Shown: positions 10,057 through 21,641, counted from the first letter of the stretch. The stretch: DNA of 64,000 nt from an uncultured Verrucomicrobiae bacterium (GCA_963836315.1 CAWIJG010000002.1:867001-931000), one strand, 5' to 3'. Translations and numbers: made by a program. Notes: a model not told the origin generated them from the sequence alone.

Positions 10057-12654
10057 TCATCGCGCGAGCAATTGCACCGGGCCAAGGAGACCGCTCGGGT
10101 GCACCTGCGCTTGGACTGGATCGTAGTCTTTGTAGGCCCGGTTGACGAAAAAATACCCGGGCCACTTGCTCGGATCTTTCCAGTCGGTCGCAATGGGCGC
10201 GATGGCATTCTCGGCCCGGTTCGCCACCTTGACGACGATCTCGTTCTTTCCGTCGCGCACCAGACCGGTGACCTCAACCCGGAACGGAACTTCAAAAACG
10301 GTTCCCGCCGGCTTTCCATTCACGCTGACCGACGCGACATCGCGCACGTCGCCTAGATCCAAAATCACGTCTCCCCGTGGCTCACCAGACAGATGGAATG
10401 TTGTTCGATAGATCGCCGTGCCTGCGAAGTGTTTCAAGTCATCGGTCCCCGTCCAGTCAATCAACTGGGGGAAACTCCTTTCAAACGGCCTGCGCCCGTC
10501 GATGTGTCGGAACTCGACCCGCCACGGACCCTGGACTGTGGCGATTGGCTTCTCCGGGCGCGCCGGAACAGAGGCGCGTCCCGGGGCGGCTTTGTCGCGT
10601 CGGATCATGACCAAGCGCGACTCCTTCGGACCGATCTCGATGTCAGCCGCCACGCGTCCACCATCAACGTGGTACGAAGATGGTTCGATCTTGCCGCTGC
10701 GCGCGTCCCAGATTTCCAGACAGCCCTTCGCGCGGAAAGAAAACGTCTGGCGAATTTGATTCGTCGGTGACGGGTTGTGCAGCAGGAACAAATCATAATC
10801 GGCTCCCTGACGGTGCAACCAGCGGACTTGAGTCAGATCATCTGCCTTCAATTGCGGCTCGATATCCAAGCCTTGCAGAATTGCCGGGATGTTTTGCTCA
10901 TCGGCCAGATACGTGGTTCCTTTGCCAATCTTTCGCGGCGCTGTTCCTGCTTTCTCGAAGAAGAGATCCGCTGCATTCTGACGGAGCTCGGCTGTCTGCG
11001 CATCATGGTTCTTGAAAGTCGGGATTTCTGACGGCAGTTGCTCCGCCACAACCGTCAGGCCATCCTTAACCAGTGCCTGAACCTTTTCGAGCGTCTCCAA
11101 CGGCATGACCGACGCGTCCAGAATCAACACGCGGTAGCGGCTGGCTCGATCAATGGTCCGATCGGTCACACGATCAGACAACCATTGCGGCAAGCCCCGC
11201 GCGTTATAGACGCACACGTCCGCCACAGGCCGGCCCGAGCGAAGCAACAGGCAGTTGCGGCTCAGAGTATCGGCAAGAACGCGGAAGTACGGCCAGAAGG
11301 TATTGTTATGGTCGATCTCGCAGGAGGCGTAGAAGGTCCAGCCGGGAAAACCGGCGCCCGGCGGCGAATAATTATATCCGTGAAACACAAGTTGATTGGC
11401 GCCGTCGGCAATAATCTCATCCGCTTGTTGACGAAGATCGTGCAGGGTCACCCGCCAGTGTTCCGTCAGCCACGTGAAGCTTTCGCAGGAAACCACCGGA
11501 TGACCGTACACGTGCGCTGCCGTCAGCGCCATGTTGGCCCCAATGGCCGTGTCATCCGAAGATTTGAAATCCATCTCGAATTCGGGGAAGTCCGCCATCC
11601 CGTAGGAATCTTCCCAATCGGTCGGGCTGCCGTGCGCCTGTGCGCGTGATTGCAAGCCGTGCTGGTGGCTCCAGCGCGTCAGTTCCCCATAACAATTCTC
11701 CACGATCAGATCACGAAGCGTTTGTTCGTAATCCCATTTCACCTGCGCGGCGATGCCTCGACCCGACCCGTCGAGCAAATGCAGATAGGGCGTCAGGTCA
11801 TAACCGCGTCGCGCACGGAACTGTTGGAGAAAATCCGTCGTCCACGTGGGCCTGCCAAGTTCCCAACTGTCCATGAACAAGCTCTCGAACGTCGGGCCCG
11901 CAAGCTTGCCGACTCGATCCAGCACCGGCTGCACGCAATGGTCCAGATGAAAATCCATCGCGGCTGCGCTCAAATGATCCAATACCGGGCCTCTGTCCCG
12001 GGGATTCGCTCGTTTGTGCGCGCCCACCCCGCCAAGTTTCGCCCAAAAACACGTTGCCAACCATTTGCCTTCGGGCACAGACACGGAGATCTGCCCGTCC
12101 GACGGCAGTTCGTTAGTCACCACCTGTGCGGCCTCGACGGTCCCGTCCCGCCGCAACGTTACCGCAACCACCGGCCCGCGCGGCTGGAAGATCGCCTCTC
12201 GCTCCCCCGGGCCGTCGAGCGGAACCGTTTGTGACTCCAGGCTCTGGCCCGCATGCGCGTTATCAATCCATGGTCCGGCATACGGCCAGCCGCTTCCCGG
12301 AGTCAGGTCCACTTTCATGCCCAGCTTGGCGGCTTCCTCAATGCACGCCGCGACACGGTCCGCCCATTCGGGTGAAGCGTACACCACCGGCTTGTGGCCG
12401 GGCACCGCGGGCAAAGCATCGTACAAAGACTGGATCTCCACTCCCGCCAACCCTTGCTCCTTCATCCCCTTCAGCTCGCGCGCCAATTCCTGCCGCGTCA
12501 CCGCCCCGCCGAACCACCAGTAGCGCGTGCGCGGTCGGTATTCCATCGGCGGATTGGCGAAGTCGCGCTGCAGTTGCGCCGCCGTCGGCAACCCTTCCGC
12601 CATGGACGCGGATGCCAGGAAACCGCCGAACAGAATGGCGCAAAAAAGTCTCAT
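10057..12654 (-). CDS. Secreted glycoside hydrolase, possibly GH106-type alpha-L-rhamnosidase (family tentative)
   Basis: Start placed at internal ATG 12654, giving signal peptide MRLFCAILFGGFLASASMA; the track ORF extends into the upstream gene. N-terminal motif DFANPPMEYRPRTRYWWFGG resembles the GH106-like N-terminus. Confidence 0.6.
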   Translation of the reverse strand: MRLFCAILFGGFLASASMAEGLPTAAQLQRDFANPPMEYRPRTRYWWFGGAVTRQELARELKGMKEQGLAGVEIQSLYDALPAVPGHKPVVYASPEWADRVAACIEEAAKLGMKVDLTPGSGWPYAGPWIDNAHAGQSLESQTVPLDGPGEREAIFQPRGPVVAVTLRRDGTVEAAQVVTNELPSDGQISVSVPEGKWLATCFWAKLGGVGAHKRANPRDRGPVLDHLSAAAMDFHLDHCVQPVLDRVGKLAGPTFESLFMDSWELGRPTWTTDFLQQFRARRGYDLTPYLHLLDGSGRGIAAQVKWDYEQTLRDLIVENCYGELTRWSHQHGLQSRAQAHGSPTDWEDSYGMADFPEFEMDFKSSDDTAIGANMALTAAHVYGHPVVSCESFTWLTEHWRVTLHDLRQQADEIIADGANQLVFHGYNYSPPGAGFPGWTFYASCEIDHNNTFWPYFRVLADTLSRNCLLLRSGRPVADVCVYNARGLPQWLSDRVTDRTIDRASRYRVLILDASVMPLETLEKVQALVKDGLTVVAEQLPSEIPTFKNHDAQTAELRQNAADLFFEKAGTAPRKIGKGTTYLADEQNIPAILQGLDIEPQLKADDLTQVRWLHRQGADYDLFLLHNPSPTNQIRQTFSFRAKGCLEIWDARSGKIEPSSYHVDGGRVAADIEIGPKESRLVMIRRDKAAPGRASVPARPEKPIATVQGPWRVEFRHIDGRRPFERSFPQLIDWTGTDDLKHFAGTAIYRTTFHLSGEPRGDVILDLGDVRDVASVSVNGKPAGTVFEVPFRVEVTGLVRDGKNEIVVKVANRAENAIAPIATDWKDPSKWPGYFFVNRAYKDYDPVQAQVHPSGLLGPVQLLAR

Positions 12655-12680
12655 ACGTTCCAAGCCACGAGTATGCCGCG

Positions 12681-20373: not shown

Positions 20374-21641
20374 AAATCCCAAGCTGATGTCGAAACTCGT
20401 ACCACATCCCGCCCGGCGAATCCAAGCGCCGCCGTCAGCAGGAGCCCCGCGCCGATCACATAGATGACCGCGCCGAACGCAATGGCTTCGCTCATGTTGT
20501 CGATGGCCTTTGCGTGCCGTCCGTATTTCGTCACCAACCCGACGACCAACGGGCCGAGCGCGCCCCCGCCCCATCCCACTGTGTTCATGATGCCTGCGGC
20601 GGTGGCCCGCGCGCGCGGCTCAATTACGTCGAACAGCGACGCGAAGATATTCGCATCGTAAAGGCCTTTGCAGAGGCCAAAAAGCGTCATCGCCGCGAGC
20701 AGCGTGTCGACACTCGAAGTGAGGCCGACGATCCCGACGAACGTCGCCCCCACAAGCAGACCCAACGCCTGCACCATCATTCGTCCGCCGGCAAAACGAC
20801 CGGCCAACCGATCGGCCAGCACACCGCCCAGCGGCACGCTCACCGCACTGGCAAGATGGGTGAACACCGCTCCCGATAAGCCTGCCGCTGCGAGCTTGAA
20901 GTCGAACTTTTCGACTAGAAAAGTCGGTGTCCATGAGAGAAAGATCGTGGCGACGAAGTTTGCGCAGAGAAATGCGCCCATCAGCAGCAGGGCTGTTGGC
21001 TTGCGGAAGATCACGCGGGCCACTTCGTTCACGCCGAGCGACGGCAGCGCGACTGTCTCCACCGCATCACCGGCGCCGCGCACTGGTTCGCGCAAAAAGC
21101 GATAGAGCCCGAGGGCCAACAGCACGCCGGCGCAACCAAAAAAATAGAACCCCGTGCGCCACCCGTGTGCTTCCGCAAACCACGCGCCCGCCCAACTGCC
21201 GGCGATCGTGCCGATATACACGCTCGACTGGTGCAGGGAAAACGCCCGGGACCGCGTGCGCGCGCCGTGGTAATCGCTCACGAGCGACATCGTGGCCGGG
21301 AAATAAAACGTTTCGCCAAACCCCTCCATCCCGCGGACGGTCACGAATTGCCACAGTCGTCCGCACCAACCGGTCATGACCGTAACGCCGCTCCAAAACA
21401 GGCAACCGCCCAGGATGAGGTGCTTGCGCGGCAGGCGGTCGGCCAGAAAGCCCGCGAACGGCGCCCCCGCCGCGTAGATCCACATGAAGGCCGAGCCGAT
21501 CAAGCCCAGTTGCACCGGGTCGAAACCAAATTCGCTTTTCAATTTCGGGAAGACCGAGAACACCGCCTGCCGGTCCGCATAATTAAAAAAACACACGAAC
21601 CAGAGCATGCCGACGACGGCCCATTTGTAATGCCGGTTCAT
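20370..21641 (-). CDS. MFS transporter, anion:cation symporter (ACS)-like (hexuronate / acidic sugar type)
   Basis: 423 aa, 12 TM. N-terminal FNYADRQ motif is typical of ACS-family MFS. Confidence 0.75.
   Translation of the reverse strand: MNRHYKWAVVGMLWFVCFFNYADRQAVFSVFPKLKSEFGFDPVQLGLIGSAFMWIYAAGAPFAGFLADRLPRKHLILGGCLFWSGVTVMTGWCGRLWQFVTVRGMEGFGETFYFPATMSLVSDYHGARTRSRAFSLHQSSVYIGTIAGSWAGAWFAEAHGWRTGFYFFGCAGVLLALGLYRFLREPVRGAGDAVETVALPSLGVNEVARVIFRKPTALLLMGAFLCANFVATIFLSWTPTFLVEKFDFKLAAAGLSGAVFTHLASAVSVPLGGVLADRLAGRFAGGRMMVQALGLLVGATFVGIVGLTSSVDTLLAAMTLFGLCKGLYDANIFASLFDVIEPRARATAAGIMNTVGWGGGALGPLVVGLVTKYGRHAKAIDNMSEAIAFGAVIYVIGAGLLLTAALGFAGRDVVRVSTSAWDL

What the first reader, a model, noticed from the sequence alone, without database searches (positions are those of the whole stretch)
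10057..21641. Co-directional glycan-degradation operon: MFS, BNR-GH78 chimera, BNR sialidase-like, six-hairpin-type GH and GH106-like GH, consistent with breakdown of a rhamnose/ulosonic-acid-containing glycan
Seen in sequence: five secreted or membrane genes on the minus strand with ATGA overlaps at 20370-20373 and 16609-16612 and gaps of 26 nt or less elsewhere. Each glycosidase has its own signal peptide. Established knowledge: GH78 and GH106 are alpha-L-rhamnosidases, and sialidase-fold enzymes also act on Kdo/DHA-type ulosonic acids; these activities co-occur in Bacteroides rhamnogalacturonan-II loci. The ACS-type MFS would fit uptake of an acidic sugar product. Inference: a PUL-like locus for a complex acidic rhamnoglycan that uses MFS uptake rather than SusC/D.
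Basis: partly seen in the sequence, partly recalled or inferred. Interest (0 to 1): 0.65.

Follow-up and report, generated by a model that had tools for sequence, protein, structure and literature searches.

The report
Pectin side-chain (Kdo/Dha, rhamnose) degradation operon
This is a real six-gene operon in a soil or peat Verrucomicrobium that most likely strips the two short acidic side chains (rhamnose-Kdo and arabinose-Dha) off the plant pectin rhamnogalacturonan-II and imports the products; it is a non-Bacteroides variant of a known system and includes one large, uncharacterised enzyme family.

Summary
The minus strand carries a tight run of genes: MFS (20370-21641), BNR_2::GH78 fusion (16609-20373), GH143 (14840-16612), an unassigned 716-aa hydrolase "UNK" (12681-14831) and GH106 (10057-12654). 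There are two ATGA overlaps and gaps of 8 and 26 nt.

The family calls hold. GH78 and GH106 match at E 1e-88 to 1e-157. The "sialidase-like" gene matches the Dha-hydrolase half of B. thetaiotaomicron BT1020 (GH143, E 7e-81). BNR_2 plus GH78 mirrors BT1013, which removes RG-II chain C.

In other Verrucomicrobia the order transporter, BNR_2, GH78 recurs as separate adjacent genes, once beside a GH140 apiosidase. In Phycisphaerae, GH143 sits with GH127 and GH95.

Best reading: an RG-II chain C/D and rhamnose debranching module with MFS uptake and no SusC/D. It is a new variant of a known kind. No biochemistry was possible.

The parts
20370..21641 (-). MFS transporter, 423 aa. Closest to the anion:cation symporter / D-galactonate subfamily. 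Proposed importer of the released ulosonic acid (Kdo, possibly Dha).
   Evidence: Pfam MFS_1 E 1e-61. Best NCBIfam hit TIGR00893, E 7e-45, below cut-off. A 79% identical ortholog sits directly upstream of stand-alone BNR_2 and GH78 in L028. An SSF transporter holds the same position in L027.
16609..20373 (-). BNR_2::GH78 fusion protein, 1254 aa, with one N-terminal signal peptide. Proposed two-step chain C enzyme: the GH78 alpha-L-rhamnosidase uncaps the chain, then the sialidase-fold domain releases Kdo.
   Evidence: Pfam BNR_2 (residues 51-330) E 8e-90, plus Ig_Rha78A_N, Bac_rhamnosid_N, Bac_rhamnosid, Bac_rhamnosid6H (E 2e-99) and Bac_rhamnosid_C. PDB 6i60 E 2.5e-157 and 3w5m E 2.3e-148. 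The fusion occurs in about 14 clusters at 64-90% identity, P0391-P0404.
19384..20223 (-). BNR_2 six-bladed beta-propeller domain of the fusion (residues 51-330).
   Evidence: AF2 model pLDDT 92. Foldseek gives GH33 sialidases at TM about 0.8 and 15-19% identity, with top hit 5hx0 of unknown function. A profile matches NanB at E 4e-12: the nucleophile Tyr is conserved (protein Y317) and one arginine of the triad is conserved (R224), but NanB Glu541 aligns with an invariant Gln (Q208). Nearest homologs, 70-85% identical, are stand-alone proteins of about 350 aa.
19291..19326 (-). 12-residue fusion linker MVAEGLESSDAG (residues 350-361). It replaces the stop codon, the intergenic spacer and the GH78 signal peptide found where the two genes are separate.
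   Evidence: Comparison with the stand-alone pairs in L027 and L028, and with other fusion clusters that have different linkers.
14840..16612 (-). GH143-family protein, 590 aa: a sialidase-like propeller plus a CBM-like domain. [quoted passage not shown] Here it is stand-alone, not fused to GH142 as in BT1020.
   Evidence: Pfam Beta-prop_BT_1020 E 1.7e-35 and Sialidase-like_CBM E 1.6e-26. PDB 5mqr (BT1020) residues 22-594, E 7.4e-81. Relatives in Phycisphaerae lie in DUF6298-GH127-GH95-GH143 operons.
12681..14831 (-). UNK: secreted 716-aa hydrolase of a large unassigned GH65-like family, with an N-terminal beta-sandwich and an (alpha/alpha)6 barrel. Specificity unknown. Candidates are the missing chain D beta-L-arabinofuranosidase or a rhamnose-releasing pectin enzyme.
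10057..12654 (-). GH106 alpha-L-rhamnosidase, 865 aa, with a C-terminal jelly-roll domain.
   Evidence: Pfam Glyco_hydro_106 E 5.8e-88. NCBIfam AlphaRhamBT4145 E 1e-119, below cut-off, and rhamnoside_JR domain E 3e-25. PDB 6q2f E 1.5e-74 and BT0986 5mqm E 3.6e-58.
8527..10044 (-). Two-domain sugar-type (CUT2) ABC ATPase, 505 aa, 12 nt downstream of GH106. No permease or binding protein lies nearby. Probably part of the operon; its role is inferred only (powering a rhamnose or arabinose importer encoded elsewhere).
   Evidence: Pfam ABC_tran x2. NCBIfam AraG, XylG and RbsA at E about 1e-150, all below cut-off. 93% identical and in the same position in L019/L020, where a transposase follows it.

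Best explanation
This is a periplasmic debranching operon for the two short acidic side chains of plant rhamnogalacturonan-II, plus rhamnose caps, in a Verrucomicrobium. It works with inner-membrane transporters instead of a SusC/D pair.

Proposed steps:
1. The GH78 half of the fusion removes the alpha-L-rhamnose that caps chain C (Rha-alpha1,5-Kdo-alpha2,3-GalA).
2. The BNR_2 sialidase-fold half then releases Kdo.
3. GH143 releases Dha from chain D (Araf-beta1,5-Dha-beta2,3-GalA) once its arabinofuranose cap has gone.
4. GH106 and the GH65-like UNK protein remove further caps. These would be rhamnose, and possibly the chain D beta-L-arabinofuranose, because no GH142 is present.
5. The ACS-type MFS imports the freed ulosonic acid. 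The orphan ABC ATPase may energise uptake of neutral sugars through components encoded elsewhere.

Shown here: gene structure, family and fold assignments, conservation of the operon, and the co-location patterns in other genomes.

Inferred: every substrate, the order of steps, the periplasmic location, and the roles of UNK, the MFS and the ABC ATPase.
For: 1. Tight operon structure that is conserved in relatives.

2. GH143 has one characterised activity, Dha hydrolase on RG-II chain D (BT1020 N-terminal half; review PMC13501991). The window protein matches that half over about 560 residues at E 7e-81.

3. BT1013 combines a GH78 rhamnosidase with a Kdo hydrolase and acts on chain C (PMC13501991). 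Here a GH78 is fused to a sialidase-fold BNR_2 domain.

4. The pairing is not peculiar to this genome.
- Stand-alone BNR_2 and GH78 genes 70-72% identical to the two halves are adjacent in L027 and L028.
- At least two different fusion designs exist.

5. A transporter always precedes BNR_2. In L028 it is an MFS 79% identical to the window's. In L027 it is an SSF, the transporter family that includes sialic-acid importers.

6. L028 also carries a GH140-type apiosidase, GH2, GH106 and RhaT/rhaM. Apiose is an RG-II sugar.

7. In Phycisphaerae, GH143 lies in DUF6298-GH127-GH95-GH143 operons with a GH78 nearby. GH127 and GH95 are RG-II PUL families in B. thetaiotaomicron (from my own knowledge).

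8. The UNK family lies next to, or is fused with, pectin enzymes (GH28, CE8, PL9, PL4, PL22, GH88/105-type, GH43, GDSL esterase, KduI/KduD) and rhamnose catabolism genes (RhaA, RhaT, rhaM, FGGY kinase).

9. Relatives come from peat and soil metagenomes (SPRUCE, palsa), where plant cell wall is the obvious source.
Against: - No enzyme assay, expression data or dbCAN run was possible.
- GH143 and the Kdo-hydrolase precedent each rest on one characterised enzyme.
- I could not obtain the BT1013 sequence, so homology of the BNR_2 domain to its Kdo-hydrolase half is untested.
- In the profile alignment to NanB, the Glu that partners the nucleophile Tyr is an invariant Gln in this BNR_2 family, and the RIP arginine motif was not aligned. 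The chemistry may therefore differ from classical sialidases.
- The 64-kb window has no backbone enzymes (GH28, PL1) and none of GH137-GH142, GH127 or GH95. On its own the operon cannot degrade RG-II.
- GH143 relatives in other Verrucomicrobia (L002-L005) have no conserved glycan neighbours.
- UNK and GH106 contexts point as much to RG-I and rhamnose as to RG-II.
Confidence: 0.6

Rival explanations
1. The enzyme logic is the same (rhamnosidases plus two ulosonic-acid hydrolases plus an acid-sugar importer), but the natural substrate is not plant RG-II. It would be another Kdo- or Dha-containing glycan, such as green-algal (prasinophyte) scale or theca polysaccharide, or a bacterial capsule or lipopolysaccharide fragment carrying rhamnose and Kdo.
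For: Family assignments only fix the sugar class. The window has no RG-II backbone or chain A/B enzymes. Kdo and Dha also occur in algal scales and bacterial envelopes (from my own knowledge).
Against: Partners in other genomes are plant-pectin families: GH140 apiosidase, GH127, GH95, GH28, CE8, PL9, PL4 and KduI. Relatives come from peat and soil. Dha with a dedicated GH143 hydrolase is documented only for RG-II.
Confidence: 0.15
2. This is a general rhamnose-harvesting operon aimed at RG-I, arabinogalactan or other rhamnosides. GH78, GH106 and UNK would all release rhamnose. The two sialidase-fold proteins would have non-ulosonic or accessory (binding) roles. The MFS would take up galacturonate or small acidic oligosaccharides.
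For: The operon has two confirmed rhamnosidase families. UNK sits beside RhaA, RhaT, rhaM and FGGY kinase in three loci (RhaA in all three, RhaT in L029 and L030, rhaM in L023 and L030, FGGY kinase in L029 and L030), and beside PL4 rhamnogalacturonan lyase in one. UNK is fused to GH28+GH88-type and PL22 modules. The invariant Gln at the NanB Glu541 position in the BNR_2 family leaves room for non-canonical function.
Against: The GH143 match to the BT1020 Dha-hydrolase half is strong and full length. The BNR_2 domain keeps the nucleophile Tyr and an arginine of the triad. It is under strong conservation, 70-85% identity across many lineages. It is specifically coupled to a transporter and a GH78, which fits an enzyme that releases an importable acid sugar.
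Confidence: 0.15
3. This is a sialoglycan or mucin locus: the BNR_2 and GH143-like proteins are true sialidases acting on host or microbial sialic acids.
For: The sources label the BNR_2 homologs 'predicted neuraminidase' or 'sialidase family protein', and the fold is that of GH33 sialidases.
Against: Identity to GH33 is only 15-19%, with a non-canonical residue at the catalytic Glu position. No sialic-acid catabolism genes (nanA/K/E) lie in the cluster. The coupling is to rhamnosidases and pectin genes. The organisms live in peat and soil.
Confidence: 0.03

Closest known systems
Bacteroides thetaiotaomicron BT1013 (GH78 alpha-L-rhamnosidase plus Kdo hydrolase; RG-II chain C)
   Same: One polypeptide combines a GH78 rhamnosidase with a second catalytic module for the underlying ulosonic acid (for BT1013; for the window protein).
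   Different: The domain order is reversed: BNR_2 is N-terminal here, whereas GH78 is N-terminal in BT1013 according to PMC13501991. The fusion arose locally from adjacent stand-alone genes. Sequence relatedness of the BNR_2 domain to the BT1013 C-terminal half was not testable here. The gene sits beside an MFS rather than inside a SusC/D PUL.
Bacteroides thetaiotaomicron BT1020 (GH143 Dha hydrolase plus GH142 beta-L-arabinofuranosidase; RG-II chain D; PDB 5mqr)
   Same: The 590-aa window protein aligns with residues 22-594 of BT1020 at E 7e-81 and has the same Pfam propeller and CBM-like domains.
   Different: It is stand-alone, with no GH142 half. The next gene is a GH65-like protein that does not resemble GH142 by sequence or fold ranking.
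GH65 hydrolases (Flavobacterium johnsoniae alpha-1,2-glucosidase 7fe3; human PGGHG 9sd4-9sd8)
   Different: - Identity is only 13-16%.
- The window protein has no hit to the Pfam GH65 models, and only 12 of 70 diverse members hit weakly.
- The position of the GH65 hydrolase general base is Gln (Q652).
- There is no C-terminal beta-sandwich.
- The genomic context is pectin and rhamnose, not alpha-glucosides.
Bacteroidota RG-II polysaccharide utilisation loci (SusC/D-based)
   Same: Several RG-II-linked hydrolase families are clustered, co-directional and secreted.
   Different: There is no SusC/SusD and no regulator in the cluster. It holds only a subset of activities (chains C and D plus rhamnose). 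Uptake is by MFS, and possibly an ABC system. The host phylum is Verrucomicrobiota, where RG-II degradomes are barely documented: a survey of CAZy genomes found one non-Bacteroidota species, a Verrucomicrobium, among those lacking only one or two RG-II degradome families (bioRxiv 10.64898/2026.03.13.711244).

Membership tests
GH78 (alpha-L-rhamnosidase) | Significant sequence similarity to the GH78 catalytic (alpha/alpha)6 module and its accessory domains | tested here: met
   Pfam Bac_rhamnosid6H E 2e-99, with the N, concanavalin-like, C and Ig_Rha78A_N domains all above cut-off. PDB 6i60 E 2.5e-157.
GH78 (alpha-L-rhamnosidase) | Hydrolysis of alpha-L-rhamnosides; specificity for Rha-alpha1,5-Kdo | not testable with these tools
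   Needs an enzyme assay.
GH33-type sialidase superfamily / Kdo hydrolase as in the BT1013 C-terminal half | Six-bladed beta-propeller of the sialidase fold | tested here: met
   Pfam BNR_2 E 8e-90. AF2 pLDDT 92. Foldseek TM about 0.8 to GH33 structures.
GH33-type sialidase superfamily / Kdo hydrolase as in the BT1013 C-terminal half | Catalytic Tyr/Glu nucleophile pair and arginine triad | tested here: inconclusive
   In the profile alignment to NanB, the Tyr (Y317) and one Arg (R224) are conserved, but NanB Glu541 aligns with an invariant Gln (Q208). The first Arg (RIP motif) region was not aligned.
GH33-type sialidase superfamily / Kdo hydrolase as in the BT1013 C-terminal half | Sequence homology to the BT1013 Kdo-hydrolase domain, and Kdo release | not testable with these tools
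GH143 (Dha hydrolase) | Sequence similarity to the founding member, the BT1020 N-terminal domain | tested here: met
   PDB 5mqr residues 22-594, E 7.4e-81. Pfam Beta-prop_BT_1020 123 bits against a cut-off of 27.
GH143 (Dha hydrolase) | Release of Dha from RG-II chain D | not testable with these tools
   Needs an enzyme assay.
GH142 (beta-L-arabinofuranosidase, BT1020 C-terminal half), considered for UNK | Sequence or closest-fold similarity to the BT1020 C-terminal domain | tested here: not met
GH65, considered for UNK | Match to the GH65 catalytic-domain models above threshold | tested here: not met
GH65, considered for UNK | General-acid Glu, plus a general-base Glu (hydrolases) or a phosphate site (phosphorylases) | tested here: inconclusive
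   E499 (63 of 70 members) aligns with the acid. The base position is Q652 (Gln in 45 of 70). This rests on alignment only; coordinates of the model could not be inspected.
GH106 (alpha-L-rhamnosidase) | Sequence similarity to the GH106 catalytic module | tested here: met
   Pfam Glyco_hydro_106 296.6 bits against a cut-off of 29. PDB 6q2f E 1.5e-74 and BT0986 5mqm E 3.6e-58.
Bacteroidota-type PUL | Adjacent SusC-like TonB-dependent transporter and SusD-like lipoprotein | tested here: not met
   No such genes lie between 5900 and 23200. The only TonB-dependent receptor in the window is at 41379-43790, about 20 kb away among unrelated genes.
Complete RG-II degradome | Presence of backbone enzymes (GH28, PL1) and chain A/B enzymes (GH137-GH141, GH127, GH95, GH2, etc.) | tested here: not met
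   None were found among the window ORFs that were scanned: all ORFs of 250 aa or more in 1-34000 were read and ten of the larger ORFs in 34000-64000 were run against Pfam. The rest of the genome was not available.
ACS (anion:cation symporter) MFS subfamily | Score above the subfamily model cut-off | tested here: inconclusive
   TIGR00893 is the best hit at 153.6 bits, far below its cut-off of 395.

The most novel reading that the evidence does not exclude
UNK would represent a new glycoside hydrolase family with no characterised member, despite more than 3,000 clusters at 50% identity across several phyla. Its fold is GH65-like. It keeps the general-acid Glu but has a Gln where GH65 hydrolases have their base. 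Its activity would be pectin-specific and currently lack an assigned enzyme in these organisms: either the beta-L-arabinofuranosidase that uncaps Dha in RG-II chain D in place of GH142, or a new type of rhamnose-releasing enzyme. Together with the transporter-BNR_2-GH78 triad, this would define a SusC/D-independent route by which soil Verrucomicrobia and Planctomycetes harvest Kdo and Dha from plant cell walls.
Probability: 0.4. Interest if true: 0.65.

Novelty: new variant of a known kind. Interest (0 to 1): 0.45.

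Why it matters
RG-II is the most complex plant polysaccharide. Its breakdown has been worked out almost only in gut Bacteroides with SusC/D loci. This operon and its relatives show how abundant peat and soil Verrucomicrobia and Phycisphaerae may handle its Kdo and Dha side chains.

- The unit is a compact transporter-BNR_2-GH78 module, which has fused into one protein in this lineage, plus a stand-alone GH143.
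- It supplies concrete candidates for a bacterial Kdo/Dha importer.
- It points to a very large, unannotated GH65-like family tied to pectin and rhamnose use. That family is a practical target for enzyme discovery and for better CAZyme annotation of soil metagenomes.

Tried and rejected
- UNK as GH142, the obvious partner of GH143: rejected. There is no sequence or profile hit to 5mqr, and it does not appear in the fold rankings.
- GH143 as an anchor for a widely conserved operon: only close relatives (L001, L019, L020) share this gene order. Other Verrucomicrobial GH143 loci (L002-L005) have no shared glycan neighbours among themselves, while Phycisphaerae have a different operon.
- Promoter and terminator scan of 5500-23500: counts equal the shuffled expectation, so it is uninformative.
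- Alignment of the region upstream of the MFS with L019: only the transaldolase end is conserved, with no shared operator-like block. L019 carries an extra 206-aa ORF there.
- Rfam and tRNA scans of the window: nothing found.
- Retrieval of the window's own contig through P0001: not on record.
- The original RG-II paper (tried as PMC5388186) is not held, so BT1013 and BT1020 functions are cited from the review PMC13501991 and a 2026 preprint.
- The afdb50 fold library was unavailable.
- A literature search for a characterised GH65-like pectin enzyme found nothing relevant.
- MFS2 (7189-8418) and TauE (5902-6828) as operon members: rejected. The gaps are 108 and 360 nt, and both genes are absent after the ABC gene in L019/L020.

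Full report
**Observation**

The minus strand between 21641 and 8527 carries six consecutive genes:
- an MFS transporter (20370-21641)
- a 1254-aa protein (16609-20373)
- a 590-aa protein (14840-16612)
- a 716-aa protein (12681-14831)
- an 865-aa protein (10057-12654)
- a 505-aa ABC ATPase (8527-10044)

The remaining gaps are 8, 26 and 12 nt. The next genes are set apart by 108 and 360 nt: a second MFS at 7189-8418 and a TauE at 5902-6828. The upstream neighbour is a divergently transcribed transaldolase-family gene.

The four hydrolases each start with a short basic N-terminus and a hydrophobic stretch typical of signal peptides. This is by inspection and hydropathy only. The longer ORFs listed mechanically for three of the genes are upstream read-through in GC-rich DNA.

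The same order, transaldolase / MFS / fusion / GH143 / UNK / GH106 / ABC ATPase, occurs on contigs from a relative. There the hydrolases are 86-91% identical and the ABC ATPase 93% identical (L019, L020; partial in L001). In that relative a transposase follows the ABC gene, so the second MFS and TauE are not part of the unit.

**Family assignments**

*The fusion protein.* The 1254-aa protein has a BNR_2 propeller at residues 51-330 (E 8e-90), followed by the full GH78 domain set (Bac_rhamnosid6H E 2e-99). It matches solved GH78 rhamnosidases at E 1e-148 to 1e-157.

*GH143.* The 590-aa protein carries Pfam Beta-prop_BT_1020 and Sialidase-like_CBM. It aligns with residues 22-594 of BT1020 (PDB 5mqr) at E 7.4e-81. 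It is therefore a GH143, and here it stands alone.

*GH106.* The 865-aa protein is a GH106 (Pfam E 5.8e-88; PDB 6q2f and BT0986).

*MFS.* Its best subfamily hit is the galactonate/ACS model TIGR00893, at a score below that model's cut-off.

*ABC ATPase.* This is a two-domain sugar-type (AraG/XylG/RbsA-like) ATPase. No permease or binding protein was identified among the window ORFs that were read or scanned.

**The unassigned 716-aa protein (UNK)**

UNK has no Pfam, NCBIfam or PDB sequence match, yet it belongs to a very large family.
- More than 8000 clusters at 90% identity share words with it.
- 3135 clusters at 50% identity match at E up to 0.001.
- A few members are labelled "GH65" or "PGGHG" by their sources.

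An AlphaFold model (pLDDT 75, pTM 0.81) shows an N-terminal beta-sandwich and an (alpha/alpha)6 barrel. GH65 enzymes rank first in both fold searches:
- Foldseek: 7fe3 at E 1.6e-20.

BT1020 (GH142) appears in neither list.

A profile of 70 diverse members matches 7fe3 at E 2.5e-14 over nearly the full length. In that alignment the near-invariant E499 (63 of 70 members) lines up with the GH65 general-acid Glu. The general-base Glu of GH65 hydrolases lines up with Q652 (Gln in 45 of 70).

Scanned individually against Pfam, only a minority of the 70 members hit any model. They give weak hits to Glyco_hyd_65N_2, Glyco_hydro_65m, Glyco_hydro_95_cat or DUF5703_N.

UNK is thus a distant GH65-like family that the available libraries do not model. 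GH142, the expected partner of GH143, is excluded.

**What neighbourhoods elsewhere say**

*BNR_2 with GH78.* The closest relatives of the BNR_2 domain (70-85% identity) are stand-alone proteins of about 350 aa from Verrucomicrobia, Planctomycetes and others. The closest relatives of the GH78 part beyond the fusions are stand-alone proteins of about 910 aa.
- Two were inspected. In L027 (Opitutaceae) the order is SSF transporter, BNR_2, GH78, then GH2 and GH106.
- In L028 the order is MFS, BNR_2, GH78, GH2, GH106. A GH140-type apiosidase, DUF6298, RhaT and rhaM lie close by.
- The L028 MFS is 79% identical to the window's MFS. Its BNR_2 is 72% identical and its GH78 71% identical.

*How the fusion arose.* The fusion protein is a joining of two adjacent genes.
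- The stand-alone BNR_2 ends "...IKHVVLDPKKL".
- The mature stand-alone GH78 begins "LRVADPKCEF...".
- The window protein has a 12-residue linker between those two points.
- Other fusion clusters have different linkers. Two of them (P0421, P0431) lack the Ig domain of GH78, so fusion probably happened more than once. BNR_2 is first in every case.

*GH143.* In Phycisphaerae, including the cultured Fontivita pretiosa, GH143 ends a conserved DUF6298-GH127-GH95-GH143 operon, with a GH78 5 kb away.

*UNK.*
- In seven further sampled contexts, UNK lies with GH88-type hydrolase plus KduI/KduD; with GH28, GH43 and a CE8-GH95 fusion; and with GH28, CE8, PL9, DUF4450 and RhaA/rhaM.
- It also lies with FGGY kinase, RhaA and RhaT; with GH3, GH95, CE8 and RhaA/RhaT/rhaM; and with a PL4 rhamnogalacturonan lyase. 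The seventh context, L019/L020, repeats this operon.
- Family members are fused to GDSL esterase, GH43, PL22 and GH28+GH88-type modules.

All of this is pectin biology.

**Link to known biochemistry**

According to the review PMC13501991:
- BT1013 carries a GH78 rhamnosidase (N-terminal) and a Kdo hydrolase (C-terminal) that act on RG-II chain C.
- BT1020 carries a GH143 Dha hydrolase (N-terminal) and a GH142 beta-L-arabinofuranosidase (C-terminal) that act on chain D.

The chain structures are Rha-alpha1,5-Kdo-alpha2,3-GalA and Araf-beta1,5-Dha-beta2,3-GalA (PMC12282258).

The operon therefore encodes counterparts of three of these four activities. The GH143 counterpart rests on direct homology. 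The GH78-plus-sialidase-fold counterpart rests on architecture and context.

The BNR_2 domain models confidently as a six-bladed propeller (pLDDT 92) and superposes on GH33 sialidases at TM about 0.8. In a profile alignment to NanB it keeps the nucleophile Tyr (Y317) and an arginine (R224). It has an invariant Gln (Q208) where NanB has Glu541. I could not obtain the BT1013 sequence, so direct homology to its Kdo-hydrolase half remains untested.

**Most likely mechanism (confidence about 0.6)**

Secreted enzymes would act in the periplasm on RG-II fragments.
1. GH78 removes the chain C rhamnose.
2. The attached BNR_2 domain releases Kdo.
3. GH143 releases Dha after the arabinofuranose cap is removed.
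4. GH106 and UNK take off further caps.
5. The MFS imports the acid sugar. A transporter precedes BNR_2 in both loci inspected elsewhere (L027 and L028), which is the best clue to its substrate.
6. The ABC ATPase may power neutral-sugar uptake with partners encoded elsewhere.

Gene structure, families, folds and co-location are shown. Substrates, order, location and transport are inferred.

For UNK two readings remain open. One is the missing chain D beta-L-arabinofuranosidase, suggested by its position next to GH143 and the absence of GH142. The other is a rhamnose-releasing pectin enzyme, suggested by RhaA (with RhaT or rhaM) in three of the seven further sampled contexts.

**Rival explanations**

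- The same enzymes could act on another Kdo/Dha glycan of algal or bacterial origin (about 0.15). Plant-pectin partners elsewhere and peat or soil origins weigh against this.
- The operon could be a general rhamnose or RG-I harvesting unit in which the propeller proteins are not ulosonic-acid hydrolases (about 0.15). The strong GH143 match and the transporter-BNR_2 coupling weigh against this.
- It could be a true sialidase locus (about 0.03). Low identity, context and habitat weigh against this.

The main weaknesses of the best explanation are these:
- there is no assay;
- the precedent for each ulosonic activity is a single enzyme;
- the window lacks backbone and chain A/B enzymes;
- GH143 relatives in other Verrucomicrobia have no informative neighbours.

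**Novelty and interest**

The component families and the RG-II logic are known from Bacteroides. What differs:
- the host phylum and the lack of SusC/D;
- the compact transporter-BNR_2-GH78 module and its fusion, with domain order opposite to BT1013;
- a stand-alone GH143;
- a large unmodelled GH65-like family in place of GH142.

A 2026 preprint surveying 22,053 CAZy genomes found complete or near-complete RG-II degradomes almost only in Bacteroidota, with one Verrucomicrobial exception. Soil RG-II enzymes from Verrucomicrobium have only begun to be studied (GH139).

I rate this a new variant of a known kind, of moderate interest (0.45). The UNK family is the most promising lead.

**What led nowhere**

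- Promoter and terminator scans were at background level.
- Comparison of the upstream region with L019 showed no conserved operator.
- Rfam and tRNA scans were empty.
- The organism could not be named.
- afdb50 was unavailable.
- The original RG-II paper was not held.
- A literature search found no characterised member of the UNK family.

Noticed in passing
window 8527-10044 (-): An orphan two-domain CUT2-type sugar ABC ATPase (AraG/XylG/RbsA-like) lies 12 nt after GH106. It is 93% identical and in the same position in a relative. No permease or binding-protein gene was identified among the window ORFs that were read or scanned. Its partner and substrate are unexplained.
   Followed up: partly
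window 29346-30980 (+), break near 30730: The OppA-like peptide-binding protein gene appears frameshifted. The reading frame gives '...DMWLTGGG' and then nonsense. The neighbouring frame continues with a typical family-5 SBP C-terminus ('GGNNETGWSNLQYDHLIAEA...YVYLAPNLN*'). This is either a sequencing error or a pseudogene.
   Followed up: partly
L006 2414-11719, and the same arrangement in L010-L013: Phycisphaerae (Fontivita pretiosa and Tepidisphaerales MAGs) share an operon DUF6298 (about 1050 aa)-GH127-GH95-GH143. DUF6298 also sits in the Verrucomicrobial loci L027 and L028 next to MGH1-like GH, GH43 or GH140 and the BNR_2-GH78 pair. DUF6298 may be an uncharacterised RG-II enzyme.
   Followed up: partly
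proteins P0127, P0136, P0141, P0151, P0166 (UNK-family representatives): UNK-family domains occur fused to GDSL esterase, GH43, PL22 oligogalacturonate lyase, and a GH28+GH88-type pair (1555 aa). P0147 carries a T9SS sorting domain, so the family also occurs in Bacteroidota.
   Followed up: partly
L007 8355-11764 and L015 8396-11725: Two Phycisphaerales/Tepidisphaeraceae loci carry tandem duplicated GH143 paralogs. In L015 they read as one 1109-aa ORF.
   Followed up: no
L019/L020 16444-17947 and 2351-2971: In the closest relative the operon is followed by a DUF772/DDE transposase instead of the window's MFS2 and TauE. An extra 206-aa ORF lies between the transaldolase gene and the MFS. The flanks of the operon are therefore variable.
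   Followed up: partly
window 19168-20463 (+), 12885-13814 (+), 15290-16057 (+): Long antisense ORFs (255-431 aa) overlap the hydrolase genes. Their Arg/Pro/Gly-rich translations look like by-products of about 60% GC coding DNA rather than genes.
   Followed up: no
window 21816-23195 (+): The divergently transcribed transaldolase/FSA-family gene keeps its position next to the operon in L019/L020. Whether this is only local synteny or a link to catabolism of the released sugars is unknown.
   Followed up: no
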